Source: Candidatus Saccharimonadales bacterium (GTDB lineage Bacteria > Patescibacteriota > Saccharimonadia > Saccharimonadales > EFPC-124). From it: a stretch of 45,393 nucleotides of DNA. Below, piece after piece: positions 25,334 through 42,319 of this stretch. Every line of letters starts with the position of its first letter. Position 1 is the first letter of the stretch. The notes below the pieces were generated by a model. The model was given only the letters and a program-made list of their open reading frames with translations. It made no database searches and was not told the origin of the DNA. Location: the NCBI GenBank assembly GCA_050730875.1, contig JBOHNX010000003.1, positions 1 to 45,393 of the forward strand. Reading direction: 5' to 3'. Position numbers and translations under genes: made by a program.

Positions 25334-25363
25334 TTAAAATACTCCTCACTAATCTGTTACAAT
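25334..25363 (+). promoter_or_regulatory. orphaned native ychF promoter candidate (leaderless)
   Basis: TTAAAA (25334-25339), 18-nt spacer, TACAAT (25358-25363). ATG 25371 lies 7 nt downstream and has no SD. Confidence 0.4.
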
Positions 25364-25370
25364 ACTGTCT

Positions 25371-25397
25371 ATGAGTTCTCTTCAAATCGGCATAGTG
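25371..25397 (+). pseudogene. ychF: original 5' end of ychF (9 codons, MSSLQIGIV) left behind at attL
   Basis: ATGAGTTCTCTTCAAATCGGCATAGTG encodes MSSLQIGIV, matching the YchF N-terminus (M..IGIVGLPNVGKS). The reading frame then hits a stop after 2 more codons, where AT-rich foreign DNA starts. Confidence 0.65.
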
Positions 25398-25500
25398 AAG
25401 TTTTAACTCAACTACCTTTTGAGCTGAAGATTACTATGTCTCCAACAGATAAGGGTAACCGCGGTTACTCAGATGAGTATGTAGAAAGACTGTTACAAAA

Positions 25501-25550
25501 TTGAAAAGCCCCCGATTTTTTCACGCTTTTGGCGCTATGAGATCGGGGGC
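25501..25550 (-). terminator. intrinsic terminator candidate for the hydrolase gene
   Basis: The arms GCCCCCGAT (25508-25516) and ATCGGGGGC (25542-25550) pair. On the minus strand the hairpin is followed by UUUUC. The loop is long (25 nt), with a possible inner GCGC/GCGU helix. Confidence 0.4.
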
Positions 25551-25694
25551 GTGGCCGCTGCAGTCAGCTTGTGGCTGATGAGTGACCTGGATGGAGTGCC
25601 TGGTTCAAGCAACGTCCATGAGTTCTACGAGGATGTTCATCCGTGAGTGTCCCACGAACAACTCTTGCAGAAATAATCAATAATAAGGGTCGCG

Positions 25695-26399
25695 TTACTT
25701 CAAAAGCCAATCGGTAATAACCTCGTAATATTTCGCGATACCGTCTTGTGGATTAGATGGGTCACGGAACGGATGGGCAAAGCCTTCTGCGATATACGTT
25801 TCAGCAGCAAATTCTACCTTATAAATATCTGTTGTGTCAGTTGGAACGCTTTTATCTTCGCCATGTACAACCAAAAGAGTGAGAGGCTGTCCGATTGATT
25901 CTTGCAAGAATAGAGGGTGCTTTTTAAGTGTCTCGGTATTTTTGCGATACTCACGTACTTGCAGTTTATCTATATATTGATGCTGAGTGTAAAAATCCTT
26001 TGGTTCGTAGATCGCAGGAGTTCTCAAAATCAGCTTTTGTACTGCGCGAAACCTCGTAAGATAGGCTGCCATAAAACCGCCATAGCTTGTTCCCATTACA
26101 TGGACAGCACTATCTGGATAATTAGCCTTGATCCAGTCGTAGGCTTTCGTGGCTTCAAATAAATGTTGCGCCGGGATGGTTTCATTCACATTAAGCGGGC
26201 TTTCGCCGTGACCTGAAAAGTCAACAATCAGCGCACTTAGGCCGGTATCCGCGACGACCTTAGCCACGAAATCACTGTTGCTCTTTTTGCTTGAGCCAAA
26301 GCCGACGAAAGTAAGGATAATCCCTCGATTTTTTTCGCCTTCGTGCCAATCCGCTTGGATTGAATAGCCTGTAACTGGAATAGAGATTTGTTTTATCAT
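25695..26399 (-). CDS. alpha/beta-fold serine hydrolase
   Basis: 234 aa with nucleophile elbow GTSYG, plus VVHGEDKSVP and a C-terminal His (GFAHPF). Confidence 0.8.
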   Translation of the reverse strand: MIKQISIPVTGYSIQADWHEGEKNRGIILTFVGFGSSKKSNSDFVAKVVADTGLSALIVDFSGHGESPLNVNETIPAQHLFEATKAYDWIKANYPDSAVHVMGTSYGGFMAAYLTRFRAVQKLILRTPAIYEPKDFYTQHQYIDKLQVREYRKNTETLKKHPLFLQESIGQPLTLLVVHGEDKSVPTDTTDIYKVEFAAETYIAEGFAHPFRDPSNPQDGIAKYYEVITDWLLK

Positions 26400-26464
26400 T
26401 CAGTAAATACTAACATGTAACAGGGGTATGGTCAATCAAGCCAACCTCTGTTAAAGTCATTACT

Positions 26465-26488
26465 ATGAGTTCACTTCAAATCGGTATT
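26465..26488 (+). other. ychF 5'-end mimic carried by the older element, now the left junction of the intact element
   Basis: ATGAGTTCACTTCAAATCGGTATT encodes MSSLQIGI, with three synonymous differences from 25371-25394. The frame is lost after this point. Confidence 0.55.
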
Positions 26489-26737
26489 CACAAGACGCAA
26501 CCATACCATTCGATATAACCTTCTCGATGCCTCCACTAGATAAAAGAACACGAGGTTATACGCCTCAACAGATCAAACAATTACAAGAAACAGTTGGCGG
26601 AGAGTGGTAAAAGGCTATGCTACCACAGGCACTAATAAATTTGGTTCATTATTTTGCTTGATATTAGACTGAGCATCCCTCCACAAATTTTTTTTCCAGA
26701 ATTCAGGTCGAGCAATTTCACCCCACCACACTCACCA

Positions 26738-28216
26738 CTATATTTTTCTTAAAACATTGAACGCTTCAACCATTGCCAGAGTATCTAACTTACAGTATTC
26801 AATCAGATCAGCAAATAGTACTTCTTGATCAATATGATCCTTATCGTCAATGACTGACTGCATCCATAGCCTCTGGGCAGATGCCCCTTCTTGTATACCT
26901 AAAACCTTATACGACAACTGAGGTGCTATTACAGGTAGTACATTTTTAATACTTGCACTTCCACAGAACTTCTTATCAACAAACCACCCTTTAGCAAATG
27001 GAATCATCAGGTCAACAATACGATCATTCACTTGGTTCAGAAATTCGCTATGATCTGAGACGATTTCAGCTAGTAAGCTATTGCACTTCTTCTCGAAACT
27101 CTCATTCCAAACAATTACAGTACCTTCATCGCCTATATGACTTCGTAATGCACCCGCTAATGGTTCACAAGGATTTGTAGCCTCACGATGTAAATATTCA
27201 ACATGTCGAAGATCAGCCTCTGGGCTATCAAGAATATGTAACGAGTACTGAAATGGTAATTGCTGATAAGGTCTTAGACCGTCGAAAGCAGGAACTATAC
27301 CCCCAAGTGTTTCGTAATCTAGAAAATATAATGGGAACTGTAGGTGGCTTAGAAATTCACGTATAGGTTCATGAAGAATTAATTGCTGATCTAACTTAGC
27401 AGCTTGTACTTGTAACGCTTGCTTTGGCGACAACTTATAGTCGTCTGGTATTTCTTGCAACGTGGTAATGCCCGAACTTTCAAATGCTTCAACCTTCGTG
27501 GCATTTAAGCCACACAGATCATAGATAGTGTCTTCTGGTAGATTATTCAGGGATTTATATATATCAAGCCATTCACCAAATGCACCATTCCCTGCCAATG
27601 AAGGAGATAGATCAGGTACTTCTGAGAGCTGCATCGTAGAGAGTGCTTCGTCAACATTAGAGGAGGTATATTCCTTTTTTGCTAGTACTTTCTCAGTCAC
27701 ATCACTGATGATCGAAAACTCTTGAGGATTAATATCACCATTCCGAACATATCCATTGTTCACATGTATTACGAACACGTTCCTTACCTTAAAGCCTGCG
27801 TCTTCGATTACTTTTACTTGGAATGCTAGATCAATAATATGTTCTGGCTTTGCACTAGTACTAGATTTGATTTCATACAGATCAAAAGTCTTATCGGCAA
27901 CCACATCTATCACATCACAGATACATGTTATCTGCCCTGCTAGAAAGCGTGCTTGAAAGATCGTTTTAACTCCACCCAATAGTGCTTCAAGTGTTTGTTC
28001 TGGTAGGGCTAAGTAACTTGCATAATCTGTAAATCCAAGTCTTACACCATTATCGAAATGCTTCTCGGCATAACCTTCAAACAAATTACCTGCATCAAAA
28101 ACTGCCTGAGTATTATCATCAATGTGTGGCAATTTGTCTTTATCATTCTTCTTCAACCATAGCCATGCAGGGTGCTTTAGGTAAAGTAAGTAATCAGATT
28201 TCGACAATAGCATCAT
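26738..28216 (-). CDS. DUF2779-family protein: N-terminal PD-(D/E)xK nuclease plus a C-terminal exonuclease-like domain
   Basis: 492 aa. It starts LSKSDYLLYLKHPAWLWL. D...DLYEIKSS forms a (D/E)xK motif. YFLDYETLGGIVPAFDGLRPYQQLPFQYSLHIL is the hallmark block I associate with DUF2779. Confidence 0.6.
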   Translation of the reverse strand: MMLLSKSDYLLYLKHPAWLWLKKNDKDKLPHIDDNTQAVFDAGNLFEGYAEKHFDNGVRLGFTDYASYLALPEQTLEALLGGVKTIFQARFLAGQITCICDVIDVVADKTFDLYEIKSSTSAKPEHIIDLAFQVKVIEDAGFKVRNVFVIHVNNGYVRNGDINPQEFSIISDVTEKVLAKKEYTSSNVDEALSTMQLSEVPDLSPSLAGNGAFGEWLDIYKSLNNLPEDTIYDLCGLNATKVEAFESSGITTLQEIPDDYKLSPKQALQVQAAKLDQQLILHEPIREFLSHLQFPLYFLDYETLGGIVPAFDGLRPYQQLPFQYSLHILDSPEADLRHVEYLHREATNPCEPLAGALRSHIGDEGTVIVWNESFEKKCNSLLAEIVSDHSEFLNQVNDRIVDLMIPFAKGWFVDKKFCGSASIKNVLPVIAPQLSYKVLGIQEGASAQRLWMQSVIDDKDHIDQEVLFADLIEYCKLDTLAMVEAFNVLRKI

Positions 28217-28219
28217 AAA

Positions 28220-29371
28220 TCAAAACCAGTCCGATAAATCTTCAACAGGTTCTTCGTGCTCTTTAATTCGTTCTAGATTTTCAATCGTAGATGAAAGCTT
28301 ATTGAGTAATTCTGAATATGTCCATATCTCTAGGGTGGAGCCAAGTGAGCGTACTAAATTTTCTCGATTCTGTTTCCAGCGTGCATCATCGCTATGTTTC
28401 CCAATTACAATAATGCACTTTCCTATATGAGCTTGCCCTTTAATTCCTAATTTCTCTAACTCTGCGTCACCTGCTGGCTTTGCTTCAAGGGTACTCTTAT
28501 ACTCTAGAATTTGAGGTACAGCACGTGCTAAATGTTTGTGAATCTGATAAGTGCTAGTAGGATTATTAATGCTGCTAGATTGAGTAACTTCAAATATATC
28601 ATCTGCTGGGCTTTTCAATTCAATAAGCACGTGATCAACGTATTTAGAGCCTACCCTAGTAAGAACATCGAATTTTTTCGAACTCACCGAACCTTCACGC
28701 TGGAAATCAATGTACTCTAGCCCAAAGATCATGCACCTTTGTTGCCTGTACTTGTGGCCGTCTTCATCGAGCCAATTTTGAACATCTGTTTCAGAAGCAT
28801 TTGTCTCGATAAATTCTTCAAGCTTTTCTTTATAACTTTTAAGTAGCCTGATTGTAGATTTAGTTCTTAATAGCTCTGAAACCTCAATTCCTAGTTCATC
28901 TGCCATTTTAATAATCTCATCATTATTAGATGCATTATTCATATATTCCTTTAGCTGATCAGCAGAAATAACATGGTATGAACCGTCAAAATCACCGAAA
29001 TCGATCGTTTCTTTGAACTTAAATAGAAACGCTACCATTCTCCAAAACTCCCGATAACCGTCAGCACCGTCTGAAAACGGTATTCTTCGACTACGTGAGC
29101 TCGCAGGAGCATTTACATCGTTAAACTGATCGTCAACCCTTCGAAAGATTAATCTAGGCTGGTACTTATTGTCAGTGCCTGATCGTTTGAACTCCGTGTC
29201 GCAGACGGTCAAATTATTTCCTTGTGGTGACTTTGCAAGAATAAAGCCTTTGTAAGTTTCACCCGTAGCGTTATTGACTAAGTTGCAATCAAAATGATCT
29301 TGCTGATTTATAGTCAGCGAATCAATATCATTCTCTGGAACTGTTAGGTCGAAGTATCCAGACGTATCCAC
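28220..29371 (-). CDS. Shedu-like (DUF4263) nuclease-domain protein
   Basis: 383 aa with a GTG start 2 nt after the upstream stop and GAGGAG upstream. The C-terminal block FDVLTRVGSKYVDHVLIELKSPADDIF...AVPQILEYKS...KCIIVIGK fits the SduA PD-(D/E)xK core pattern. Confidence 0.55.
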   Translation of the reverse strand: MDTSGYFDLTVPENDIDSLTINQQDHFDCNLVNNATGETYKGFILAKSPQGNNLTVCDTEFKRSGTDNKYQPRLIFRRVDDQFNDVNAPASSRSRRIPFSDGADGYREFWRMVAFLFKFKETIDFGDFDGSYHVISADQLKEYMNNASNNDEIIKMADELGIEVSELLRTKSTIRLLKSYKEKLEEFIETNASETDVQNWLDEDGHKYRQQRCMIFGLEYIDFQREGSVSSKKFDVLTRVGSKYVDHVLIELKSPADDIFEVTQSSSINNPTSTYQIHKHLARAVPQILEYKSTLEAKPAGDAELEKLGIKGQAHIGKCIIVIGKHSDDARWKQNRENLVRSLGSTLEIWTYSELLNKLSSTIENLERIKEHEEPVEDLSDWF

Positions 29372-29373
29372 GT

Positions 29374-31587
29374 CTACTCCTCGTCATCCGTAGTATTACC
29401 GCCGTAGATCTTAAGATCAACCTTAACACTATCGTGTGGGAGATTAAGTGCATCAACTACATTCAGAACAAGCTGACGCTTTGCATTTGTATTTGTACCC
29501 GTATCGATAAAGTAGCCAGTATTGTAAATTTCTCGACTCGAACCAAAAGCTGTGGCGTCAGTCTTAATATACTTAGAGAGCCACTCATCATTTGTGATTG
29601 TATCGACAAAACGATCAGGACTACTCTCGTAAATAGCCTCGATAATCAAGTCGACTGCATCTGCCCATGTAGAAACTGATTCTTTTTTGCCAAAGACTTC
29701 GACAGACTTAATACCCTTACCCTTGAGATCGATGTCGTCGAGTAGATAAACCGATGTGTCCTCCTCGATTGGCTGGAATGAGGTTATGGGTAGTGGCCAT
29801 ATACTATTTAGCTTGGTTAGCCACCATATCTGACGCTCCTTGAGTGTAGCCTCGTTCCACTCGTCCTTTTGCTTAATCCAGTCATTGATTGGCAGTGGAC
29901 TAGCATCGAATCCGACTGCAACACCCTTAACAACAAGTGTTTTCTTGTCTTTATCCTGAAAGCCATTAAAAGCACGATTGGAGTACTCTGAATTGTAGCC
30001 AGTCAAAGTTAGGTTTGCCAACGTGTGCAGATACTCGCTATGAATACGCTCGTAATCTTCGCCTAGCATATTCTTCCAGCTCTGACCGTATTCACCGCTG
30101 TTGATAGTCTGCGGCATGATGTGTTCGATAGTGGGCTGGAAACCGTCTTCAACCATACGACGCAATGTAGCTTTCGACTCTTTGTTCTTGGCATCGGTAG
30201 ATGCTAAAACATAGCACAAGATAGAGTTACCGTGTTGCTCATAAAATGGATAAGTACGTACAGCTAACTCGAAATCATCATTGTTTGGCATCTGGGTTTG
30301 CCCCGTTTGGGTCAAGAAGATGTACTTAAGGACTTCAACGTATTTAGCCTCTTTGTCACGTCGTAAATAATCAAGAGCTTGCTTATGAAGCGACGCCATA
30401 AAACGGTCCACGCTTGTAACGTAGTAATTGACGATTATACGACGAGAGAAATATGACTCAAGTAGCTTGAACACTGTTACTAACTCATCGTCTGTGAGCT
30501 GTCCGTCTGCATGATAGCCAAGTGCTGACATTGCAAATGGAATATAAATATCGACTCTCATGTAGCGTAGTCTGAAAATTGTTTCAGCTATTCCTGCATA
30601 CTGACCAAACTCAGCACTGTTTTTTACCTTACTTGTATCTGCCAACTTCAAAAGTTCATAGAACTTTAGCGATCGCTTAATGTCGCTATAGAACTTATCA
30701 ACCAGCTCTTTCTCCTGTTCATCTCCAACATGTCTACCGAATTGCTTCTTAAACTCTGGATACACTTCAGGTAATTTAATATTCGACTGTTTCTTTGAGA
30801 TAAGGTAGTAACGGAAGAAGTCAGTAATGGGGTCTTTGTCAGTGGCATATAAAGTACGTTCTATAGGTCGCCAGTATTCGTTATAAACGTGATTACGTAA
30901 TTCATCGCCGTTCAGCATAAGGGCGAAATTACGAATCTTATCACCAGCCTCAAGCGGTTTGCCCGTAGAATTAATACTTTCGAAAACACGCTGTGGATTG
31001 TCATCGTTTGCTACCAACGTTAATACAGCAATCTCAAAGTTCTCAAGGCCGTTGATGTATTTGTCTAGCCCAGTCTTATCTGCAAAATACTCACGGAACT
31101 TAGAGTAAACAATATAAACATTATTCTGGTGGTCTTTTTCGAGCTGTGAAGCCTCACCTTTGGCATCAAAAATATGCTGCAATACTTCGTTATCGGTTGT
31201 AACAGTACGTAGCTTTACACGATTATTGTCCATGTCTTTGTTGATTAAGTACTGGTACTCAATCTTTTCAACCGTAGTATCTGGGTCTTCTATCAGTGCT
31301 GGATTCTTCTTAGCGAGGTGGTATATAGCAGAAATCATCAACAAAGAAGTGGTGACACGCTGTTGACCGTCAATAATAGCTCTTGAATAGGCTTTTCCAG
31401 TGTCCTTAACCTGAACGACAGTGCCAAAATAGTGGTTCTTCCCCTTAGCGACACACTCTTCGAGATCACTTAGAAACTCTTCGACATTCGATGTTTGCCA
31501 TGAGTAGGGTCGCTGAAATTCGGGAATTTCGAAGAACATTCCAGGAGTATAAAGAAATTCCTTCATATTACTTTGGGCAAAAATCAT
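29374..31587 (-). CDS. DUF262-DUF1524 (GmrSD/BrxU-like) type IV restriction enzyme candidate
   Basis: 737 aa. IPEFQRPYSW and IIDGQQR are the DUF262 ParB-like NTPase motifs. TIEHIMPQT...HTLANLTL is a DUF1524 His-Me finger. ATGA overlap with the upstream gene. Confidence 0.75.
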   Translation of the reverse strand: MIFAQSNMKEFLYTPGMFFEIPEFQRPYSWQTSNVEEFLSDLEECVAKGKNHYFGTVVQVKDTGKAYSRAIIDGQQRVTTSLLMISAIYHLAKKNPALIEDPDTTVEKIEYQYLINKDMDNNRVKLRTVTTDNEVLQHIFDAKGEASQLEKDHQNNVYIVYSKFREYFADKTGLDKYINGLENFEIAVLTLVANDDNPQRVFESINSTGKPLEAGDKIRNFALMLNGDELRNHVYNEYWRPIERTLYATDKDPITDFFRYYLISKKQSNIKLPEVYPEFKKQFGRHVGDEQEKELVDKFYSDIKRSLKFYELLKLADTSKVKNSAEFGQYAGIAETIFRLRYMRVDIYIPFAMSALGYHADGQLTDDELVTVFKLLESYFSRRIIVNYYVTSVDRFMASLHKQALDYLRRDKEAKYVEVLKYIFLTQTGQTQMPNNDDFELAVRTYPFYEQHGNSILCYVLASTDAKNKESKATLRRMVEDGFQPTIEHIMPQTINSGEYGQSWKNMLGEDYERIHSEYLHTLANLTLTGYNSEYSNRAFNGFQDKDKKTLVVKGVAVGFDASPLPINDWIKQKDEWNEATLKERQIWWLTKLNSIWPLPITSFQPIEEDTSVYLLDDIDLKGKGIKSVEVFGKKESVSTWADAVDLIIEAIYESSPDRFVDTITNDEWLSKYIKTDATAFGSSREIYNTGYFIDTGTNTNAKRQLVLNVVDALNLPHDSVKVDLKIYGGNTTDDEE

Positions 31588-32750
31588 GATTCCTCCTTCT
31601 TATTCGCTACGATCTGCTGTAAATCTTTGCTGTAGTGGTAATCGACAATATCACCGTTCTGAAGCATATTAACCGCCTGTTCGATAGCTAGTAACGGTAC
31701 TGAATACCATTCACTAGGAACGTACTCTCGCCCATCAGGTCCAATAATTGTCAGGTCTACTTTTGCATCTGAAAATATACGATGAATGAAGTGTTCGACT
31801 TTCTGAGGGTTATAGTCACCTGTCAGCACATAACTATCTACTACTTCAACACCTGCCATGAGGTACGTAGGGTCTTTCTCAGCGTCTTTAATGCGGTCTA
31901 CGATGGTTGTTGAGGTAAAGCCAATCTTGTGTAGATCTTTCACGTTCTGAACGGCAGGATCAGCACTCTGTGATCTCAGAATGTATATATAGCCCTTAAT
32001 CTCGTCTTCATCCGTCAGTCTTTTATAAACACTGTCTTCGTGAGCTGGCACAACTGCATAGCCATCTTCATAGAGACGCATTGATAACGAGCGTCGGTAC
32101 ATATTCGATTCTGAACCGTTCTCGTAGATCACTCGAAAACGCTCTTTATTGCGGTCGTATACCCTCTTTTTATCAGTTGCATCTACGATACGCACCATCT
32201 GACCTGCATGAACGTAGTATTTGCCTAGATGAAGTTGTTCAACTGAGACATAACGCTGTAACTTCAATTTACCTTCGCCTAGCAGTCGCTGTTGCTCCTC
32301 AAAACCACTTTTGAAAGAGTCAAAGTCTTCAGCTCGTTTGCGTTCTGCACGTTCTTTTACTGGACGAGGCTTTGAAAGAGCTTCTTTCACCTTAAATATC
32401 TGATCACCAGTGCTACTAAATAAACCGAATGCATCACTTTCAAACAATTCATCAACAGACTTCGGTGCTTCAGGTACTTCTAATAATCCCAATTCATCTA
32501 TCAGTGTCAGTGCTTCAGCTTTGGTCTTATCGGTCCGAATAGAATTCAAGCGAGCCGCTAAAGAAGCTTCGCTAATATCGTTTGATTCAATTTCTGGTAA
32601 ACGATCATTAATCTTAACAAAGTCAGTAATCTGCTGAAATGAAGCAGCCAAACGATCGTCAGCAGTGACAGGAGCTTGTTTCTTCGTCGGAACAAACATG
32701 TGTCCATCACCAGACTCAAACAGCTTTACTAGATCGTCTGATAGGTCCAT
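31584..32750 (-). CDS. GIY-YIG superfamily (T5orf172/MUG113-type) nuclease-domain protein
   Basis: 388 aa. The C-terminal block is KGYIYILRS...LHKIGFTSTTIVDRI...EHFIHRIF...EWYSV. The start shares one nt with the helicase stop (TAATG). Confidence 0.6.
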   Translation of the reverse strand: MDLSDDLVKLFESGDGHMFVPTKKQAPVTADDRLAASFQQITDFVKINDRLPEIESNDISEASLAARLNSIRTDKTKAEALTLIDELGLLEVPEAPKSVDELFESDAFGLFSSTGDQIFKVKEALSKPRPVKERAERKRAEDFDSFKSGFEEQQRLLGEGKLKLQRYVSVEQLHLGKYYVHAGQMVRIVDATDKKRVYDRNKERFRVIYENGSESNMYRRSLSMRLYEDGYAVVPAHEDSVYKRLTDEDEIKGYIYILRSQSADPAVQNVKDLHKIGFTSTTIVDRIKDAEKDPTYLMAGVEVVDSYVLTGDYNPQKVEHFIHRIFSDAKVDLTIIGPDGREYVPSEWYSVPLLAIEQAVNMLQNGDIVDYHYSKDLQQIVANKKEES

Positions 32751-34726
32751 TACTTATTTGTCTCCGTTGCTTTGGTCTGTTGCCATTTAGCATAACGAGC
32801 CGTTAGATATGCCTGTGCTTGAGCTAGGAGCTTTTCATTCTTATCAGTTGCATTTAATGCAGGATATTTACCATTATGAGCTACTACAAATGCTTTGATG
32901 TGCGGAACTAGAGCTAGTGCATCTTCATCGCTCATGTCGATACGTGAACCTGCGATTGTATCTTGTATGACACGGAACACGTCTGTACCGACTTTCTTAG
33001 ATATGACCTCAAATGCATGTTGGAACGGGTTAATTGAGTCAATGAGGTCAATGCTCAACTCGTCGAGATTAACAAAGCTGTTCGCCATCGTAATGAATTT
33101 CTTATTACCGTCTTCTGTAATTTTTGCAGTCTTAAATGCAAGGTTGCTTGCAAGGTACTGTCGAGTTACTTCAACTTCTTCATCACTCAATCCAGGCAAC
33201 TTTTCACGAATAATCTTTGATTGTAGGTGCTTCATATACTCACCCGTATGACCATTAGCGGCCGCACGTTGCACTTGTGTGTCTTGCAGAACAGCAGCGG
33301 TCAGATCTTCAAGTTCTGTAGCTAGAATATGCTTCACACGCTCTGTAGGTGGTTTCTTTAGACCTTTTACAAAGACCTCACCTGCTTTTGCTTTTTGGTC
33401 TGGTGAAGTACGAGGTGTAAACGTAAAGTTCGGTGCAAGTACCTGCTCCATAAGCAATGACGCAGTAATCGCTTTGAGCATGTTATTCACTGAAATTTGT
33501 ATGTCATCACTCGTACCGTTAGGCATAACTATAAGGTTCGTAAACTGTGCATGAGTCTTGTTATAACTATCTCTCGTACAACGTCCAATAATCTGAACTA
33601 TTTCGGTCAGACTTGCCCGATACCCAATCGTAAGAGCTTGTTCACACCACGGCCAGTCAAAGCCTTCTTTAGCCATTCCTAACGCTACGATAATATCTAC
33701 ACCGTCAATATCTTCACGGGCAACTTCACTGAGGTATTTTGTAATTTTCGCACGATGCGTTGGGTCGTCATCGACTAGGTTAGCCACTTTACGAGTCACA
33801 CCATCTTTGTCGATTACAAGCTCAAGACCTGTTTCGCTGTCTTGTGAATCCCATTCGCCTATAATGTCGTAAACCTTTTGAACTTCTTCATGCTTTCCAA
33901 CTTGTGTCGCTTCTTTTGAATTCACATTAGGTATATGAATAATCGTCTTTTTAGTCGTATCAAGCACTGCATCAAGTGCACCATCGTCTAAGTAACTTCC
34001 CTGATAAAAGTGATAACCGATTCCAAGCGTTTCTAGGTAGGTGTAGCCATTAAGCTGTTCATAGTAGGTATACGTGACCTTATCGAATTCTGCTTCATCT
34101 TCTGGTGTCAGAATCGGTACTGCATCGCCACGAAAGTATGAGCCAGTCATCGCAATAATCTGTACGTTCGAATTACGCATAACGTTATGCAATAGATCAC
34201 CTAGACGGCTATTCTCACTCACTGAGACATGATGAAATTCGTCGATAGCTAAAACTGAATCATTAAATGATTCAACATCTAGGTCCTCTGATTCAAAAGC
34301 AAAACGAAGTGTCGCATGAGTACAAACAAGTATCTTGTCTTCGCCATTCATAAAGCGAATGAACGCCTTTACCTTACTTTTATCATCACCTGTCCCTAAA
34401 CAAAGGTTGTTGCGATCTTCGACATCCCAATCAGAGAAGAAGCCCCCTTCACTGAGCGGTACATTTGAGAACGACGAACCAATAGATTTTTCAGGTACGG
34501 CGACAATGACTTTTTTCTTGCCCTGATTCATAAGCTTGTCTAGACCGATATACATTAGTGCTCGTGACTTACCAGATGCTGGCGGTGCTTTAATCAGCAA
34601 GTGATTACTGCTTCTCTTCTCGAATGCCCGACGCTGCATCTCACGCATACCCATTTCATCTGTCTTAGTAGACGCACCAGTCTTATCGTATTTAACGTCG
34701 ATGATATTCAATGTTTCTTCGTTCAT
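32750..34726 (-). CDS. SF2 DExH helicase (type III Res-like ATPase)
   Basis: 658 aa. Walker A PPASGKSRA, motif II AIDEFHH, motif III MTGS and motif VI QIIGRCTRD. ATGA overlap with the MTase stop. Confidence 0.8.
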   Translation of the reverse strand: MNEETLNIIDVKYDKTGASTKTDEMGMREMQRRAFEKRSSNHLLIKAPPASGKSRALMYIGLDKLMNQGKKKVIVAVPEKSIGSSFSNVPLSEGGFFSDWDVEDRNNLCLGTGDDKSKVKAFIRFMNGEDKILVCTHATLRFAFESEDLDVESFNDSVLAIDEFHHVSVSENSRLGDLLHNVMRNSNVQIIAMTGSYFRGDAVPILTPEDEAEFDKVTYTYYEQLNGYTYLETLGIGYHFYQGSYLDDGALDAVLDTTKKTIIHIPNVNSKEATQVGKHEEVQKVYDIIGEWDSQDSETGLELVIDKDGVTRKVANLVDDDPTHRAKITKYLSEVAREDIDGVDIIVALGMAKEGFDWPWCEQALTIGYRASLTEIVQIIGRCTRDSYNKTHAQFTNLIVMPNGTSDDIQISVNNMLKAITASLLMEQVLAPNFTFTPRTSPDQKAKAGEVFVKGLKKPPTERVKHILATELEDLTAAVLQDTQVQRAAANGHTGEYMKHLQSKIIREKLPGLSDEEVEVTRQYLASNLAFKTAKITEDGNKKFITMANSFVNLDELSIDLIDSINPFQHAFEVISKKVGTDVFRVIQDTIAGSRIDMSDEDALALVPHIKAFVVAHNGKYPALNATDKNEKLLAQAQAYLTARYAKWQQTKATETNK

Positions 34727-37539
34727 TTTGTTTTCTCCCTTTCAGTCATTTGCTCGTACAGTGTGAATAGATCTGCAAGTCGCTCTTCATCTGTATTATA
34801 AGGCTTAGAGCGGTACAATTTGTCTACTACAAGATCTAATTCATGGTGAGCTTGGCGTAAATCTTCTGGCATCTTATCGGGATCGTACATTTCAGAGAGT
34901 GTTTTACCAGTATGATTCTGTCGAGTAAATATTACGTTACGAGCTTTCGACGCAACTTCCTTCTCTTCATGCTCCAATAATGGGCGAAGTGGAAACGTAT
35001 TGTATACAAGTGAAGAAGAGTACCTATAATCAGTCTTCAATTTGCCTGATACTGATCTCATCCAAACCATATGCATCCGTGAGCTAATGATTCCAAATAC
35101 ATGTAGAGGGGCTGAGGATAATACAAAAGAGGCGTTATTTACTACCGTCTCTGGCTCGATGTAGCCTATCGGAACGTATTCTCTACGCTCCGATGAAGTC
35201 GATGGAACGATAATCGAATTGTCGGGAGGCATAACAAATTCACGAAACTGATAGGGCTTATTGGCCATGTCTTGAGCACCTTTGTCTTTGCGTCCTAAAC
35301 GGAATTCACGAACTGCATCTACTCGTTCTCTGACGAACTCATATTTGTAAGCCTCTTCGAATTCAGCATCTGAAATCCATAAGCACCATCGAGATTTCTG
35401 ACTTAGGTAATCTTGTCCACTTACAAATTGCTTAATAAATCTATCTAGTCCTGAGTGTTGAGCAACGGCTTTCTGCATAGTGTCTGTGTCAAATATGAGA
35501 TGACCGCCATCTACTGGCTTGCATCCGTATCCCATTCGTGGAATGTGAGATAGAGGCTTAGTACGCTTTATGACTATGGTGTCACTTCCCTCGCTCAAGT
35601 ATGCATTGATGTTGTCTACTTCAGCACGAACCCCGTGATTATATATATACTTCGTTGCCTTCATAGGTGTTCTCAGCCCAATAATTGCTACTGTAACGCC
35701 CGCAACATTACGAGCACCATTTGTCCATTTGAATGAAGTATGTGCAAAACCGATCTCAACATCTTTTTCAAATATATAAGGCCATAGCAATGCTACTTGC
35801 TCACCCTGACAAATTGAATTAGTAGTTACGAACGCTAACTGAGCCTTTGTACCACTTATGTAATCAGCACCTAACTTAAACCACGGAGCGATAAAATCGA
35901 GATTCTTATAATTGCTGAAGTTCTTAAATACACGTGTCATCCCCGCTTTTTGCTTTTGGTCCTGAAGGCTTGAACCTAAGTATGGTGGATTGCCTATCAA
36001 GTAAATCTCATCCCAAGTCTCTTTTTCTAGCTCAAGCTCAAGAGGTTCATCGTCAAAATCTATTAATGCACTCTGTTCTGGTCCTGTCTTAACACCAGAT
36101 TTGTGTGGCACATTCGGGCACACGTCTTTCCAGTCTAGTATCGTCGAATCACCATGAATAATGCTCGCATTATCTTTAAGTGGAATGAGCTTAATCTCTC
36201 TACCAAACTGCTGTTCGAAGTCGATGTTCATTTGATGCTTAGCAAGGTATAGCGAAAGAATTGCTATCTCATGTGGGAAGTCATCTATTTCGATACCGTA
36301 GAAGTTATCTAGCTTAATTCGAGATTCAAGCTTACCTGCTAATTGTTGACGTTTATGCTCGTCACCGTAGACTCGCTCTATGATAGCGTGTTCGATTTTA
36401 CGAAGCTCTTTATAGGCGATAATCAAAAAGTTACCACTGCCACAAGCAGGGTCAAAAATTCTGATCTTGCTGATTCTATCCCAAATTCTTAGAAGTCTCT
36501 GGTCATTGTCATAATACTTATCAAACTCTTCACGTAGCTGATCAAGAAAGAGCGGTTCAATAGTCTTCATGATGTTCGGAACACTCGTATAGTGCTGTCC
36601 GTGACTGCTTCGCTGCTCTTCATCAACAATGCTTTGAAACATAGAACCGAAGATGTCAGGATTGATCTCTGCCCAATTCTGATTACCACAGTCAAGAATG
36701 AGCTTACGTGCTTGAGCGTTAAATTTAGGGATACCAATGCCGTGCTTTTTGGTGTCAAAGATCGTACCGTTGACATATGGGAACTTACTAAACGGACTCG
36801 TAAACCCTGCCTTGTTTTCAGTATCGAGTGCATCAAACAGAGTTATCAAGAAACTGTCTAAATCACTGCCATCGGTTTGGGTGTAATCTTTGATAGCATT
36901 CGTGAACATCGTTTGTTCATCACGACTGAATACTCTGGTGTCTTCTGCGAAGAAACAAAACAATAAACGACTAAAAAATACGTTCAAGTCATGTCTGAAA
37001 TTGCTGTGTGGGTCAGTTAGTTTCGCACGATTGACCTTCTCGATCTCAGCATACAAATCTTTCATCTTATCAGCAGCACGACGATCAGCTACAGCTTCAG
37101 TCTTCTCGTCAGTGATTTCATCGCCTGTCCAACCGTAGAAAAAGTCTACATCACGATCAATGTCACGCAAATTAATATCAAGACGACTGTTCTTTTTTGT
37201 ATCTACAGCTACTAGACGTTCGTAGTCTGAAACAATCAGGTATCTAGGGTTATAGCGAACGACTAACGGGTCTACCGCCAATTCTTCAGCAGTAGAGTGC
37301 AGCTTATTAGCATCAGCTACATGCTTGAAGTAGACTACTCCCCTTTGTAATATTTCATTATCTTTATCTTCAGCAAGATTCAATGATCCTTCACGAAGCT
37401 TTGTGATGGCAGATCGTGCCCGACCGTATGCAGCTAATAGCTCGTAAACGAAGTCGATGTTGTATGTTTCACGGTTGGCAATTTCAGCCACATTATTCTG
37501 TGCTTCTGCAAATGTAAGTCTAGCCATTTTGTTTGCCAA
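34723..37539 (-). CDS. MmeI/PglX-like gamma-class N6-adenine DNA methyltransferase with TRD; N-terminal nuclease motif apparently degenerate
   Basis: 938 aa. Motif I FDPACGSGNFLI and motif IV GNPPYLGS. The N-terminal PRYLIVSDYERLVAVD aligns by eye with MmeI PRYVLVCDFQRFRLTD. Where MmeI has D...EMK, this protein reads VVYFKHV. Confidence 0.75.
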   Translation of the reverse strand: MANKMARLTFAEAQNNVAEIANRETYNIDFVYELLAAYGRARSAITKLREGSLNLAEDKDNEILQRGVVYFKHVADANKLHSTAEELAVDPLVVRYNPRYLIVSDYERLVAVDTKKNSRLDINLRDIDRDVDFFYGWTGDEITDEKTEAVADRRAADKMKDLYAEIEKVNRAKLTDPHSNFRHDLNVFFSRLLFCFFAEDTRVFSRDEQTMFTNAIKDYTQTDGSDLDSFLITLFDALDTENKAGFTSPFSKFPYVNGTIFDTKKHGIGIPKFNAQARKLILDCGNQNWAEINPDIFGSMFQSIVDEEQRSSHGQHYTSVPNIMKTIEPLFLDQLREEFDKYYDNDQRLLRIWDRISKIRIFDPACGSGNFLIIAYKELRKIEHAIIERVYGDEHKRQQLAGKLESRIKLDNFYGIEIDDFPHEIAILSLYLAKHQMNIDFEQQFGREIKLIPLKDNASIIHGDSTILDWKDVCPNVPHKSGVKTGPEQSALIDFDDEPLELELEKETWDEIYLIGNPPYLGSSLQDQKQKAGMTRVFKNFSNYKNLDFIAPWFKLGADYISGTKAQLAFVTTNSICQGEQVALLWPYIFEKDVEIGFAHTSFKWTNGARNVAGVTVAIIGLRTPMKATKYIYNHGVRAEVDNINAYLSEGSDTIVIKRTKPLSHIPRMGYGCKPVDGGHLIFDTDTMQKAVAQHSGLDRFIKQFVSGQDYLSQKSRWCLWISDAEFEEAYKYEFVRERVDAVREFRLGRKDKGAQDMANKPYQFREFVMPPDNSIIVPSTSSERREYVPIGYIEPETVVNNASFVLSSAPLHVFGIISSRMHMVWMRSVSGKLKTDYRYSSSLVYNTFPLRPLLEHEEKEVASKARNVIFTRQNHTGKTLSEMYDPDKMPEDLRQAHHELDLVVDKLYRSKPYNTDEERLADLFTLYEQMTEREKTK

Positions 37540-37812
37540 ATTTTAATAACATATTATGCAATATTGTACCCTAAAAATACCCCTGTAGATAGGTGTAAAT
37601 TCTTGATCTTAATTACACAGCTATTAAGCAGCAATAATTAAGCCCCCTTCCTCCCGTATTCTCCCTGCTTCCTAGCGTCTTTTACGGTTCAAATGAGAAA
37701 TATACCGTCTCTAGCTTTGGGTTATCTCCTACGACCCCTCAGTGCGTCATCGGTAAACCAAAACCCGTTCATCTTTTGCTTATCAAAAACACTGTGCAAG
37801 GCTGCGGAAATT

Positions 37813-37849
37813 TTTTGGCCAGATTTTCGACCTCTCAACGTCTTTTTCC
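37813..37849 (+). repeat. direct repeat copy 1 (37 nt)
   Basis: TTTTGGCCAGATTTTCGACC is identical to 38511-38530. The following 17 nt match with small indels. Confidence 0.8.
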
Positions 37850-37934
37850 GTTACCTACTTGAGCTATTGCGACAAGACCGCCATATATGCGACGTACAAT
37901 GCCATAAATTAGGCATAGTGTATAATAAGAAGTG

Positions 37935-38502
37935 TAATAAGTCAGACTTATACAGAGGCACGTCACGCTGCTAGAGAAGACCGTACAAGGTATAGTATCG
38001 AAGCAAGAGAGGGAGCATAACCCTCAATAACCGTGAAGAAGTAATCTATCGTATAACTAGCGAGGGCAGCAATGGTCTTATGCGGTTGGCGAACAGGTTG
38101 AGCGATGTGTTTGACATTAAAGGTGGTGTCCTTAGACAAGCCCACCCTGTGGTTAAGGGCCAGTGTCAGTGTTGACGGGTTGACGGCCTAACGGCGGGAA
38201 CTATCGACATAACCTCTACTTCTTCAAGAGTAACGTGCAGACAACTTCTGACGCTTGGGGATAGTAGGGGTAGTGTCTCAAAATCTCAGAGCCTTCAACA
38301 AGAACTAAGGTTTTCTGTGACAGTACCTACTCTATCCCGAATCCGAGAAAGCCCAGAATTCTCCGCAAACAGTGAGCGAAGCGAACGGCAAGTAACCGAA
38401 GGTTACGCTACAGATACCCCGAATTAGAACGTGCCAACAAACTCCAAAAAGTCTGACAAAATTCTGGCGTAGCCCCCTGCTGTAATGCCGTTTTTTATTA
38501 GC
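37935..38502 (+). ncRNA. candidate structured non-coding RNA, class unknown; ends approximate
   Basis: About 0.6 kb with stops in all six frames and visibly higher GC than the surrounding island. Helices: 38009-13/38021-25; 38122-26/38142-46; 38258-64/38332-38 plus 38269-77/38319-27, enclosing 38289-95/38307-13 (two G-U pairs on the + strand only); 38392-97/38401-06 (GAA loop). TATAAT at 37920-25 and a T6 run at 38491-96. Confidence 0.3.
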
Positions 38503-38510
38503 TAGCCTTC

Positions 38511-38547
38511 TTTTGGCCAGATTTTCGACCCTCTAACGCTATTTTTC
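38511..38547 (+). repeat. direct repeat copy 2 (37 nt)
   Basis: See copy 1. It abuts the stop codon (38548-50) of the Mrr-domain gene. Confidence 0.8.
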
Positions 38548-39705: not shown

Positions 39706-39711
39706 CTGGTT

Positions 39712-40182: not shown

Positions 40183-40203
40183 ATAATCTCCTATTACTCG
40201 TTA

Positions 40204-40231
40204 TAAAAAAGGACACCTATCTCTAGGTGTC
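40204..40231 (-). terminator. intrinsic terminator (minus strand)
   Basis: Perfect 8-bp stem GACACCTA (40212-19) / TAGGTGTC (40224-31) with a 4-nt loop. On the minus strand it is followed by C-UUUUUU. Confidence 0.55.
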
Positions 40232-42278: not shown

Positions 42279-42319
42279 TCATTGATATTTATTTATAAAT
42301 GTTTATAATGGAGATTATA

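What the first reader, a model, noticed from the sequence alone, without database searches (positions are those of the whole stretch)
25334..26610. Two successive junctions each carrying a copy of the ychF start: tandem accretion of related elements at codons 7-9 of ychF
25371 ATGAGTTCTCTTCAAATCGGCATAGTG encodes MSSLQIGIV. 26465 ATGAGTTCACTTCAAATCGGTATT encodes MSSLQIGI with three synonymous changes. Both mimic the YchF N-terminus, and both lose the frame right after it. The functional ychF at 44159 starts with a third version, ATGCTAAGCATTGGCATTGTC (MLSIGIV). The simplest reading has three steps. First, the native start and its leaderless promoter (TACAAT 25358) were stranded at attL. Second, an older element supplied the second start. 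Third, the present element inserted into that start and supplies the third. Both left ends are homologous downstream of the junction. ychF is therefore now transcriptionally dependent on island sequence.
Basis: seen in the sequence. Interest (0 to 1): 0.7.

Follow-up and report, generated by a model that had tools for sequence, protein, structure and literature searches.

The report
Stacked integration scars at ychF start
Two left-end junctions of serine-recombinase mobile elements sit one after the other in front of the essential-type GTPase gene ychF of a Saccharibacteria genome, and they reveal that the recombinase gene itself is cut in two by integration, so the enzyme has a different tail when the element is in or out of the chromosome.

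Summary
ATGAGTTC[T/A]CTTCAAATCGG occurs only at 25371 and 26465 (0.01 expected by chance), and both copies are ychF starts with the conserved Saccharibacteria leaderless promoter.

Both are attL-type junctions of large-serine-recombinase (LSR) elements that cross over at the GG of ychF codon 7. The homologous DNA after each junction encodes the LSR's own C-terminal 36-41 residues (motif PF.L...MP..D...RGY[ST]), in the frame of the LSR gene at 42511-44214. That gene spans attP. Integration replaces the tail with ychF DNA read out of frame, and the LSR 3' end supplies the new ychF start (ATG 44159).

Of 120 homologues, 111 end this way and 3 keep the tail. Synonymous changes dominate in the tail.

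Junction B plus junction C bound an intact 17.7-kb defence island. Junction A is the scar of an older, different element.

The second start is a host-type arm with its own promoter. It is not the element-type start embedded in a recombinase gene, and its origin is unresolved.

Similar scar arrays occur at ychF in other Saccharibacteria. Tandem accretion is a known process. The split recombinase gene appears undescribed in the papers searched.

The parts
25334..25363 (+). Stranded ychF promoter of junction A (TTAAAA, 18-nt spacer, TG-TACAAT). The -10 ends 7 nt before ATG 25371, so the transcript would be leaderless.
   Evidence: Promoter scan, 9 of 12 matches with an extended -10 TG. The same T[GC]nTAnnnT motif lies 6-8 nt before the ychF start in 41 of 78 Saccharibacteria loci.
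25354..25390 (+). Junction A, host-type (B) arm: the -10 element plus ATGAGTTCTCTTCAAATCGG (MSSLQIG). The crossover GG is 25389-25390.
   Evidence: [quoted passage not shown]
25391..25504 (+). P' arm plus 'tail exon' of an older type-A recombinase element. In the recombinase frame it reads HSEVLTQLPFELKITMSPTDKGNRGYSDEYVERLLQN, with the stop at 25502-25504. This is all that is recognisably left of that element.
   Evidence: 77.8% identity over 27 residues to the C-terminal tail of the full-length recombinase P0042 (tblastn E = 2.5e-12; C-terminus listed). The same tail occurs at attL in L009, L043 and L047 and in 35 metagenome loci. DNA similarity to other loci stops at about 25504.
25695..26399 (-). 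Alpha/beta-hydrolase gene (234 aa) lying between the two junctions.
   Evidence: Pfam Hydrolase_4 and Abhydrolase_1. Homologues reach 87% identity. In L130, L131 and L132 (81% identity) it is the divergent neighbour of ychF; in L133 and L134 it has other neighbours.
26400..26446 (.). The hydrolase's own 5' intergenic region and promoter. Homology to the same region in L134 ends at 26446.
   Evidence: (TTGACC, 17-nt spacer, TAGTAT on the minus strand).
26447..26484 (+). Junction B, host-type (B) arm: CCTCTGTTAAAGT promoter element plus ATGAGTTCACTTCAAATCGG (MSSLQIG). The crossover GG is 26483-26484. This is the left half of the attB used by the present element.
   Evidence: The identical start codons ATGAGTTCACTTCAAAT follow scars in L009 and L129.
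26485..26610 (+). P' arm plus tail exon of the present element (type B). It reads YSQDATIPFDITFSMPPLDKRTRGYTPQQIKQLQETVGGEW, with the stop at 26608-26610.
   Evidence: The frame is open and in register with the recombinase ORF across a reconstituted attP. In L102 an E2-type recombinase reads straight into ...ATIPFSLSFEMPPLDKRTRGYLPKYIKELQTTVGGE. L110 5708-5840 is 92% identical in DNA.
26485..44170 (.). Present element E2 (about 17.7 kb, about 40% GC against about 50% in the host). Cargo on the minus strand: DUF2779, Shedu SduA, GmrSD-like, T5orf172, DEAD helicase, MmeI-like type IIG restriction-modification enzyme, Mrr-like nuclease. On the plus strand: a 268-aa ORF, DUF5659, HTH_17 and the recombinase.
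42299..42511 (+). HTH_17 (excisionase-like) gene abutting the recombinase start. It is a candidate directionality factor or regulator. A strong promoter-like site lies at 42282-42309.
   Evidence: Pfam HTH_17, E = 4.9e-13. Promoter scan, 11 of 12 matches. The same gene order occurs in relatives L085, L087 and L091.
42511..44214 (+). Large serine recombinase gene in its integrated form (567 aa). The last 14 codons (44173-44214, after the crossover GG) are ychF DNA read in the -1 frame (...NAKHW|HCRPTKRRQIDAV); the ORF overlaps ychF from ATG 44159, i.e. by 18 codons.
   Evidence: Resolvase, Recombinase and Zn_ribbon_recom domains. The catalytic R-V-S-T motif is invariant. 111 of 120 homologues end with the same ychF -1-frame signature.
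44085..44110 (+). Fossil second P arm and ychF-start mimic inside the recombinase 3' end (GGTCGGGTTAGATGTTGAGCATAGCG; ATG 44096 is in frame with ychF and the reading stops at 44156-58).
   Evidence: Read from the sequence. Short homologues P0023, P0026 and P0027 have one copy; others have two or three.
44148..44172 (+). Active P arm, GGTTGGGTTGAATGCTAAGCATT plus GG. It encodes ...VGLNAKHW of the recombinase and, in the +1 frame, the replacement ychF start ATG 44159 (MLSI).
   Evidence: There is dyad symmetry with the P' arm of junction B, 14 of 28 positions around GG. The same dual coding is seen in L036, L039, L043, L047, L061 and L063.
44159..45232 (+). Intact ychF (357 aa) with an element-supplied start and first four codons.
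   Evidence: It is 61-75% identical to the YchF of 80 loci, mostly Saccharibacteria.

Best explanation
The organism is a Saccharibacteria (Patescibacteria) bacterium. A family of large-serine-recombinase (LSR) elements integrates at the GG of the Gly codon in ...I-G-I-V... at the very start of ychF.

**What each junction is.** Each of the two junctions in 25334-26610 is an attL. It consists of a host-type arm (leaderless ychF promoter plus the first 6 codons) joined at GG to an element P' arm.

**What the P' arm encodes.** The P' arm is also coding. It carries the last 36-41 codons of the LSR. The LSR gene lies at the opposite end of the element and reads outward across the attachment site. 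In the P|P' configuration (excised circle, or an internal junction of an array) the LSR therefore has a conserved, probably disordered tail (PF.L...MP..D..GRGY[ST]). After integration that tail is left behind at attL, and the ORF ends after 14 junk codons of ychF DNA (the 14 that follow the crossover GG, 44173-44214). This part is shown.

**How ychF is kept intact.** The P arm inside the LSR 3' end is dual-coding. It always contains an ATG or GTG plus about 4 codons that rebuild the ychF N-terminus, so ychF becomes the last cistron of the HTH_17-LSR operon. The dual coding is shown; the transcription is inferred.

**Order of events (inferred).**
1. An older type-A element integrated at the start now at 25371.
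2. Almost all of it was lost, and a host-type promoter-plus-start module (26447-26484) with a hydrolase gene came to lie to its right, re-creating a normal attB.
3. The present 17.7-kb defence island E2 integrated into that attB. This produced junction B (attL) and junction C (attR, 44148-44172).

**Inferred function of the split gene.** The recombinase isoform reports the integration state. The tail-bearing form would be made only from P|P' DNA and the tail-less form only from the integrated copy. That could bias integration against excision, or alter stability.
For: **Anatomy**
- The LSR frame is -1 relative to ychF and stays open through both left ends. The two tails are homologous.

**Family-wide pattern**
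- 658 homologues were found; the ones that carry a source name are Saccharibacteria or other Patescibacteria.
- 111 of the best 120 end in the ychF -1-frame signature. Three (P0042, P0084, P0117) end in the tail, and their contigs have element DNA on both sides.
- L102 shows an E2-type LSR reading into a type-B tail.

**The tail is translated**
- In 33 distinct metagenome copies, the 8 codons after my search pattern (which the pattern did not constrain) read RGGRGYSD. They show 1500 synonymous against 675 nonsynonymous pairwise codon differences.
- In the 93 loci searched (about 1.5 Mb; L001-L093 plus the window), the tail motif occurs only at the 11 att junctions, always in the ychF orientation.

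**Attachment sites**
- The reconstituted attP is dyad-symmetric around GG (12-15 of 28 positions in five of the six P|P' sites compared; 10 of 28 in L001), whereas the B arms match at 10-11 of 28.
- GG is the only non-palindromic dinucleotide shared by A, B and C in register.

**Element-supplied starts in other genomes**
- L036, L039, L043, L047, L061 and L063.

**The same scar-plus-host-type-start architecture elsewhere**
- L009, L041, L044, L112, L124, L129, L118/L096, and L094 with three successive junctions.

**Lineage evidence**
- L009's stranded start (MSLSIG) is the type found in its own YchF clade, while its functional start is MSSLQI.
Against: - No empty site or close relative of this host exists in the collections. 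The best YchF match is 75% and the best match to the flanking gene is 62%. The order of events is therefore inferred from architecture only.
- No circular contig was found. At least one P|P' contig pair (L095/L106) is an array junction rather than a circle. Excision has not been shown.
- AlphaFold gives the tail pLDDT below 50, so there is no structural clue to its role.
- The conserved Met inside the tail means that translation as a separate small peptide from attL transcripts is not excluded.
- Step 2, the origin of the host-type arm B, has no demonstrated mechanism. Canonical LSR chemistry predicts P|P' internal junctions. These exist (L095/L106, L102, L110), but junction B is of the B|P' type instead.
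Confidence: 0.8

Rival explanations
1. Cassette version of the first reader's step 2. The interval 25391-26484 is one recombinase-less mobile cassette: P' tail, cargo (the hydrolase), and a promoter-plus-MSSLQIG start as its own right arm. It inserted at ychF, re-created an attB-like site, and so invited the next element.
For: - Three independent post-scar starts use identical codons ATGAGTTCACTTCAAAT: window junction B, L009 and L129. In L009 and L129 the stranded start is the common MSLSIG type.
- L009's clade has MS[LV]SIG, so its functional MSSLQI start is foreign.
- A 591-aa gene recurs as the unit tail / gene / intergenic region / host-type arm in several hosts with different arms: L112, L124, L110, L099/L120, L118/L096.
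- Cargo between scars is small and typical of mobile elements: toxin-antitoxin pairs and HTH genes.
Against: - A circle carrying such a cassette would bear an attL-type site (B|P'). LSRs are not known to recombine such a site with attB without a directionality factor (established LSR model, PMC3783163 abstract).
- In L112 the right arm is a 127-nt, 99% copy of the host's own region, including 4 codons of the neighbouring gene. That is far longer than an att site.
- In L044 the final promoter matches that of its relative L051, including the -35 element.
- The hydrolase is the native divergent neighbour of ychF in L130-L132.
- No circular cassette contig was found.
Confidence: 0.35
2. Allelic-replacement version. 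Junction B with its hydrolase neighbour is ordinary chromosomal DNA of this or a related lineage with an empty ychF site. It replaced most of the older element and its attR. The recombination was anchored by homology in ychF and joined illegitimately inside the element, leaving the attL scar A. E2 then integrated normally.
For: - Hydrolase-ychF adjacency occurs in L130-L132.
- The hydrolase's own intergenic homology stops exactly where arm B begins.
- L112 has a 127-nt duplicate of host DNA, with its right copy fused to a different neighbouring gene in the same population.
- Scars retain only 110-300 nt of the element's left end (window, L112, L041).
- Saccharibacteria are thought to take up DNA; this rests on my own knowledge and was not tested here.
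Against: - It requires a rare illegitimate join, yet the architecture recurs often (at least 8 loci).
- It does not explain the recurrence of identical MSSLQI codons in three hosts.
- No recombination tract could be resolved in ychF at the available divergence.
- YchF is less similar (70%) than the hydrolase (81%) between the window and L130.
Confidence: 0.35
3. The two copies are a dispersed or chance repeat unrelated to ychF integration.
For: None beyond the short length of the repeat (41 nt, 80% identity).
Against: - The chance expectation is 0.01.
- Both copies carry the conserved ychF promoter and start.
- Both are followed by a recombinase tail that is otherwise found only at att junctions.
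- There are only two copies in the window.
Confidence: 0.01
4. The conserved left-end ORF is not the recombinase C-terminus. It is instead a separate small gene (starting at the conserved Met, MPPTDRGGRGYS...), expressed from the stranded ychF promoter at attL, for example as a regulator.
For: - There is a conserved Met in most tails.
- The stranded promoter points into it.
- The tail is predicted to be disordered.
Against: - Conservation extends upstream of the Met (TQLPFELKLT) in the same frame, continuously from the crossover.
- L002 has Leu in place of Met.
- Four independent LSR ORFs run into the tail without a stop: P0042, P0084, P0117 and L102.
- The frame register is kept although the P arms differ in length by whole codons.
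Confidence: 0.1

Closest known systems
Tandem accretion of ICEs/IMEs with decayed cis-mobilizable elements (CIMEs), e.g. ICESt1/ICESt3 at fda in Streptococcus thermophilus (reviewed in PMC5704250)
   Same: The three steps match: site-specific integration, decay of the first element, then integration of a second element next to it at the same target gene. The result is successive att junctions. The composite may move as a unit.
   Different: - The known cases use tyrosine recombinases, with a long identical core shared by attP and attB at the 3' end of the target gene.
- Here the enzyme is a large serine recombinase with a 2-bp crossover at the 5' end of the gene.
- The internal junction in the window is B|P' (a host-type arm). 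It is not the hybrid attR-derived site that the model predicts.
dusA-specific integrase islands that insert in the 5' end of dusA and restore it (PMC4482086, listed)
   Same: Integration occurs inside the 5' end of a conserved housekeeping gene. The element supplies a replacement N-terminus, and probably expression signals as well.
   Different: The dusA islands use a tyrosine integrase. The integrase gene does not span attP, and no split recombinase is involved.
Integration-dependent immunity of mycobacteriophages (attP inside the repressor gene; Broussard et al. 2013, as described in PMC9262239)
   Same: attP lies inside a coding sequence, so integration changes the C-terminus of an element protein. 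The integrated and free forms therefore make different isoforms.
   Different: - There the split gene is the repressor, not the recombinase. The integrase is tyrosine-type, and the lost piece is an ssrA-like degradation tag.
- Here the recombinase itself is split. The lost piece is a conserved internal motif that is not -LAA-like.
LSR-encoding pipolins integrated at ychF (PMC11551731)
   Same: ychF is used as an integration site by elements that encode large serine recombinases and carry defence genes.
   Different: These are different elements (they carry piPolB) in different hosts. The passages retrieved by my term search of that paper (only the two that mention ychF; I did not read the whole paper) do not mention a recombinase gene crossing attP or scar arrays.
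Canonical phage large serine integrases (phiC31, Bxb1, A118, TP901-1)
   Same: The domain set matches: resolvase, recombinase, and zinc ribbon with a coiled coil. The attP is about 50 bp and dyad-symmetric with a non-palindromic central dinucleotide. A small gene next to int is a candidate directionality factor.
   Different: As far as I recall, attP in those phages lies outside the int ORF. The library searches found nothing to the contrary. Only the N-terminal domain matches a solved structure by sequence (TP901-1, E = 3.9e-11).

Membership tests
Large serine recombinase (serine integrase) element | N-terminal resolvase catalytic domain with the nucleophilic Ser | tested here: met
   PF00239, E = 9e-26, residues 4-151. 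R9-V10-S11-T12 is invariant in 44 homologues. The TP901-1 integrase N-terminal domain matches at E = 3.9e-11.
Large serine recombinase (serine integrase) element | Recombinase domain plus zinc-ribbon domain with an inserted coiled coil | tested here: met
   PF07508, E = 6e-17. PF13408, E = 2e-4, which is below the gathering score. The Cys ligands C322, C324, C341 and C354 are invariant. The AlphaFold model has long helices at residues 379-451.
Large serine recombinase (serine integrase) element | An attP of about 50 bp that is an imperfect inverted repeat around a non-palindromic 2-bp crossover, with attL and attR as hybrids of P and B half-sites | tested here: met
   12-15 of 28 positions are symmetric around GG in five of six P|P' sites (10 of 28 in L001). 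GG is the last base pair shared between attL and attR in the window and in L009, L043 and L047.
Large serine recombinase (serine integrase) element | Catalysis of attP x attB integration, and RDF-dependent attL x attR excision | not testable with these tools
   No reads and no circular contigs are available. HTH_17 at 42299-42511 is only a candidate RDF.
CIME/ICE-type tandem accretion | First element decayed, lacking recombination genes, but still bounded by att junctions | tested here: inconclusive
   The left junction A is a clear attL. There is no LSR between A and B. The right boundary (B) is a host-type arm, not an attR-type (P|B') site.
CIME/ICE-type tandem accretion | Second element integrated site-specifically into the att site flanking the first | tested here: met
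   Junction B has a type-B tail, junction C has the P arm of the same element, and both share GG.
Integration-dependent isoform switch (attP inside an ORF) | attP lies within a coding sequence, so the integrated and free forms encode different C-termini | tested here: met
   The ORF is continuous across P|P' in P0042, P0084, P0117 and L102. It ends in ychF -1-frame sequence in 111 of 120 homologues.
Integration-dependent isoform switch (attP inside an ORF) | The two isoforms differ in activity or stability | not testable with these tools
   The only evidence is purifying selection on the tail. The tail is predicted to be disordered.

The most novel reading that the evidence does not exclude
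The ychF start of Saccharibacteria may be a recombinase-driven cassette-stacking site, comparable in effect to an integron. LSR elements, LSR-less mini-elements and single-gene cassettes would pile up there as arrays of B|P' and P|P' junctions. The recombinase gene would be deliberately split by attP so that the cell makes a tail-bearing enzyme only from free or array-internal P|P' DNA, and a tail-less enzyme from the integrated copy. The tail-less isoform might have altered site choice, for example the ability to use attL-type sites. That would explain the otherwise non-canonical internal host-type junctions such as 26447-26484.
Probability: 0.3. Interest if true: 0.8.

Novelty: new variant of a known kind. 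Interest (0 to 1): 0.62.

Why it matters
**Directionality control.** Large serine integrases are major genome-engineering tools. Their directionality is normally explained by a separate directionality factor. A whole natural family in which integration itself swaps the enzyme's C-terminus would be a new, built-in way of sensing integration state. It would be directly testable with purified protein with and without the tail on attP/attB/attL/attR.

**Saccharibacteria biology.** These are small-genome epibionts with few described mobile elements. This work shows one hot spot, the first codons of ychF, where defence islands (here Shedu, GmrSD, a type IIG restriction-modification enzyme and Mrr), toxin-antitoxin cassettes and mini-elements accumulate. 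It also shows that expression of a conserved GTPase is handed over to the element.

**Annotation.** The 'variable C-termini' of hundreds of database recombinases are out-of-frame ychF sequence.

Tried and rejected
- **Exact-protein look-ups.** Searches for the flanking 191-aa gene, YchF and the LSR found nothing. The host species is not in the collection, so no empty site could be obtained.
- **Homologues of the 191-aa upstream gene.** The best is 62% identical, and the gene is not syntenic with ychF in 80 genomes.
- **Is 5.9-25.3 kb one large island?** I first considered this, because the conserved neighbours of ychF in relatives map to 178-5854. I rejected it: the region contains genes for the two ATP-synthase alpha/beta-family subunits (10403-12025 and 12872-14260; the ORFs between and beside them were not annotated) and no further scars.
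- **IMG/VR scan with the LSR profile.** No relatives were found.
- **AlphaFold of a tail-bearing LSR.** The tail is low-confidence, so I ran no fold search.
- **Recombination tract in ychF of L009 and the window.** No signal is visible at 65-75% DNA identity.
- **Hidden scars upstream of the other MSSLQ-type genomes (L006, L049, L024).** None were found.
- **Circular contigs among the 36 metagenome loci.** None were found. L095/L106, which first looked like a permuted circle, is a two-LSR array.
- **attL of close E2 relatives (L085-L093).** It lies beyond the 10-kb flanks.
- **Literature.** Nothing was found on Saccharibacteria LSR/ychF elements or on an LSR gene spanning attP.
Full report
**1. 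Observation**

- Junction A: ATG 25371, MSSLQIGIV, then KF-stop.
- Junction B: ATG 26465, MSSLQIGI, then HKTQPYHSI-stop.
- Junction C: ATG 44159, the start of an intact 357-aa YchF (Pfam MMR_HSR1 plus YchF-GTPase_C).

The 20-mer ATGAGTTCNCTTCAAATCGG occurs only at A and B, even with three mismatches allowed. The chance expectation is 0.01. The repeat is 41 nt long (25353-25393 / 26447-26487, 80% identity) and extends upstream of the ATG. No tRNA gene is involved.

**2. Host and native site**

The LSR homologues that carry a source name are from Candidatus Saccharibacteria, Saccharimonadales or other Patescibacteria. The 80 best YchF loci among GTDB representative genomes are mostly Saccharibacteria, at 61-75% identity. 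No closer relative of the host exists in any collection.

In those 80 loci the native ychF start is typically (A)CCTCTGTTAnAAT, then 6-8 nt, then ATGAGTTTATCTATCGG. That is an extended -10 element placed for a leaderless transcript, and 41 of 78 loci fit a strict pattern.

Both A (TCTGTTACAAT; promoter scan hit at 25334-25363) and B (CCTCTGTTAAAGT, with a TGGTCA -35 element) are of this host type.

**3. The present element**

The stretch 26485-44170 (17.7 kb, about 40% GC against about 50% in the host) carries these genes on the minus strand:
- DUF2779
- Shedu SduA
- a GmrSD-like nuclease
- a T5orf172 protein
- a DEAD helicase
- an MmeI-like type IIG restriction-modification enzyme (PADLOC E = 1.6e-287)
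- an Mrr-like nuclease

At the right end, on the plus strand, it carries a 268-aa ORF, DUF5659, HTH_17 and a large serine recombinase at 42511-44214 (Resolvase, Recombinase and Zn ribbon domains).

The LSR ORF does not stop before ychF. It runs 56 nt into it in the -1 frame (...NAKHWHCRPTKRRQIDAV-stop), and the ychF ATG 44159 lies inside it.

**4. What the homologous left ends are**

In the LSR frame, the DNA after A and after B stays open:
- A: HSEVLTQLPFELKITMSPTDKGNRGYSDEYVERLLQN-stop (25502-04)
- B: YSQDATIPFDITFSMPPLDKRTRGYTPQQIKQLQETVGGEW-stop (26608-10)

Joining the right end (C) to the left end (B) at the shared GG gives one uninterrupted ORF.

A search with that reconstructed protein found 658 homologues. 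Of the best 120, 111 end in the signature of ychF read out of frame. Three (P0042, P0084, P0117) instead end in the same tail motif, PF.L...[ML]P..D...GY[ST]. Their contigs (L001-L004) have element DNA on both sides of the site, and the +1 frame across the site reads a ychF-like start. In L102 an E2-type LSR (...DSDTRDTTQHNSDRQVGLDAKHW) continues directly into a type-B tail.

A metagenome scan with a degenerate DNA pattern for the type-A tail gave 35 real loci. In the 8 codons that the pattern did not constrain, the peptide RGGRGYSD is kept. Pairwise codon differences there are 1500 synonymous against 675 nonsynonymous. In the 93 loci held at that point (L001-L093, about 1.5 Mb, plus the window), the tail motif occurs only at the 11 att junctions, always in the ychF orientation.

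Conclusion, shown: the LSR gene spans attP, and the tail is a translated part of it. Integration detaches the tail and leaves it at attL.

AlphaFold places the end of the folded protein near residue 510 and gives the tail pLDDT below 50. It is therefore probably a disordered segment with a short linear motif. Its function is unknown.

**5. Attachment sites**

The reconstituted attP of E2 is GGTTGGGTTGAATGCTAAGCATT-GG-TATTCACAAGACGCAACCATACC. It is dyad-symmetric around GG. Five other P|P' sites were compared the same way: four match at 12-15 of 28 positions and one (L001) at 10 of 28, against about 7 expected by chance.

GG is the only non-palindromic dinucleotide shared in register by A, B and C. 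It is also the last shared position in L009, L043 and L047. The attB used by E2 was ...ATGAGTTCACTTCAAATCGG|CATTGTCGGCCTACC.

The P arm is dual-coding. In every DNA example the LSR residues ...L-[N/D/H/Y/R]-A... embed an ATG or GTG that opens the ychF frame, giving MLSIG, MLAIG, MLTIG, MITIG or VLSIG.

No promoter-like site lies in the LSR 3' end. The nearest strong one is at 42282-42309, in front of HTH_17. ychF is therefore probably the last cistron of the element's HTH_17-LSR operon. This is inferred.

**6. Junction A and the interval between A and B**

A has a type-A tail. It is 78% identical over 27 residues to the tail of P0042, and the P' arm is nearly the same as in L009. It therefore comes from a different subfamily than E2. 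Similarity to other elements ends at the tail's stop codon, and there is no LSR fragment anywhere else in the window. A is a scar.

To its right lie about 190 nt of spacer, then a hydrolase gene on the minus strand with its own promoter region (to 26446), then arm B starting at 26447.

**7. Is B the right end of an older element?**

Right ends of LSR elements, and of the LSR-less mini-elements found here, are P-type. The mini-elements are L043, L097, L111, L113, L115, L117 and L118. They are 1.4-1.6 kb long and end in a conserved TTAACAGATGAAAA...AGGTTGGTTTAAATG.

Array junctions made by canonical chemistry are P|P': L095/L106, L102 and L110. B is neither kind. It is a host-type arm with a host-type promoter, and the LSR frame upstream of it has stop codons.

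The same architecture, a scar followed by short DNA and then a host-type start, recurs in:
- L009, L041 and L044
- L112, L124 and L129
- L118/L096
- L094, with three such junctions in a row

Two explanations remain.

(i) A recombinase-less cassette whose right arm is a promoter-plus-start module.
- Identical MSSLQI codons occur in window junction B, L009 and L129.
- L009's own clade uses MS[LV]SIG.
- A 591-aa gene recurs as the unit tail / gene / host-type arm in several hosts.

(ii) Replacement of most of the old element by chromosomal DNA from a relative with an empty site.
- The hydrolase is the native divergent neighbour of ychF in L130-L132.
- In L112 the duplicated arm is 127 nt, 99% identical, and includes four codons of the neighbouring gene.
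- In L044 the final promoter matches that of its relative L051, including the -35 element.

I cannot decide between these. Neither has a demonstrated mechanism.

**8. Comparison with known systems**

The three-step history (integrate, decay, integrate again) is the accepted accretion model for ICE/IME/CIME arrays (PMC5704250). Several related features are also known:
- restoration of a gene's 5' end by an island, for dusA (PMC4482086)
- ychF as an LSR target, for pipolins (PMC11551731)
- attP inside a coding sequence, for the repressor of integration-dependent-immunity phages (PMC9262239)

I found no description of these Saccharibacteria elements. I also found no large serine recombinase whose own gene crosses attP and loses a conserved tail on integration. 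The library covers open-access papers only.

**9. Verdict**

Tandem accretion itself is an ordinary, known process. The split recombinase gene and the frequency of scar and cassette arrays at this one site are the interesting parts. They are well supported as anatomy and untested as function.

Noticed in passing
window 44085-44110 (and 44111-44147): A second, fossil P arm and ychF-start mimic lies inside the recombinase 3' end. GGTCGGGTTAGATGTTGAGCATAGCG has its ATG at 44096, in frame with ychF, and the reading stops at 44156-58. It is followed by ATACAAGAGACACAACAC, which resembles the P' arm of junction B. At protein level this gives ...KVGLDVEHSDTRDTTQAINQEQVGLNAKHW. Short homologues (P0023, P0026, P0027) have one copy. 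Distant ones (P0109, P0111, P0120) have two or three. The attP region seems to have been duplicated repeatedly in this family.
   Followed up: partly
window 26738-39705 (minus strand): The cargo of the present element is a defence island: DUF2779, Shedu SduA, a GmrSD-like protein (PADLOC Orf5/HEC-06), T5orf172, a DEAD helicase, an MmeI-like type IIG restriction-modification enzyme, and an Mrr-like nuclease. Close relatives of the element (L085, L087, L091) instead carry a 720-aa Toprim primase-like gene, which this copy lacks.
   Followed up: partly
L043:8050-9600; L097, L111, L113, L115, L117, L118: A family of 1.4-1.6-kb recombinase-less mini-elements sits at ychF. Each has a full tail exon at the left. 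At the right is a conserved end (TGGTATTATTAACAGATGAAAA..AGGTTGGTTTAAATG) that keeps the P arm and brings its own promoter-like sequence. They are probably mobilised in trans.
   Followed up: partly
L094:7490-12680; L110:2300-5840; L118:2530-6230; L044:4480-6310: Multi-unit arrays lie upstream of ychF in other Saccharibacteria. L094 has three successive host-type|tail junctions before the final P|B' junction. L110 alternates toxin-antitoxin cassettes with P|P' junctions, and its last junction carries a tail 92% identical in DNA to window 26479-26611.
   Followed up: partly
window 26465-26481; L009:9993-10010; L129:2932-2949: The functional or post-scar ychF start uses the identical codons ATGAGTTCACTTCAAAT (MSSLQI) in three otherwise different hosts. 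The stranded start in L009 and L129 is the common MSLSIG type. MSSLQI-type starts are patchily distributed on the YchF tree.
   Followed up: partly
L112:285-2057, L124, L110:2441-4453, L099, L120, L118:2729-4615, L096: A gene of 591-670 aa with unknown function (it starts MSE[AT]L..) recurs on the minus strand exactly between a recombinase tail and a host-type ychF arm, in several hosts. In L112 its first four codons and 5' region belong to a 127-nt duplicate of host DNA.
   Followed up: partly
window 25619-25645: ATGAGTTCTACGAGGATGTTCATCCGTGA in the spacer after tail A shares its first 9 nt with the start at junction A (ATGAGTTCT). It could be a further decayed ychF-start fragment, or it could be chance.
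   Followed up: no
window 178-5854 versus L066, L006, L077, L005, L130: The PilM-like gene, the DUF11 protein gene and the PG_binding_4/beta-lactamase-like gene at 178-5854 lie within 1.5-8 kb upstream of ychF in relatives. Here they are about 38 kb away. Two ATP-synthase alpha/beta-family subunit genes (10403-12025, 12872-14260; neighbouring ORFs not annotated) and genes for large surface-type proteins (e.g. 20949-24134, Reelin subrepeat B) lie in between. Synteny around ychF is rearranged in this lineage.
   Followed up: partly
L130:5536-6000 (also L131, L132, L053): In contigs where the hydrolase neighbours ychF, the 465-nt spacer ends in ...AAGGGTCAATCATGTCTCTCAGCATAGG. In L053 the homologous stretch reads as a recombinase C-terminus (PVLATSGKVNHVSQHR). 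Some apparently 'native' ychF starts are thus fixed remnants of element P arms.
   Followed up: no
database proteins P0002-P0120: The last 10-20 residues annotated for most recombinases of this family are ychF DNA translated out of frame. P0106 continues for about 50 such residues. Their apparent C-terminal diversity is therefore an annotation consequence of the integrated state.
   Followed up: yes
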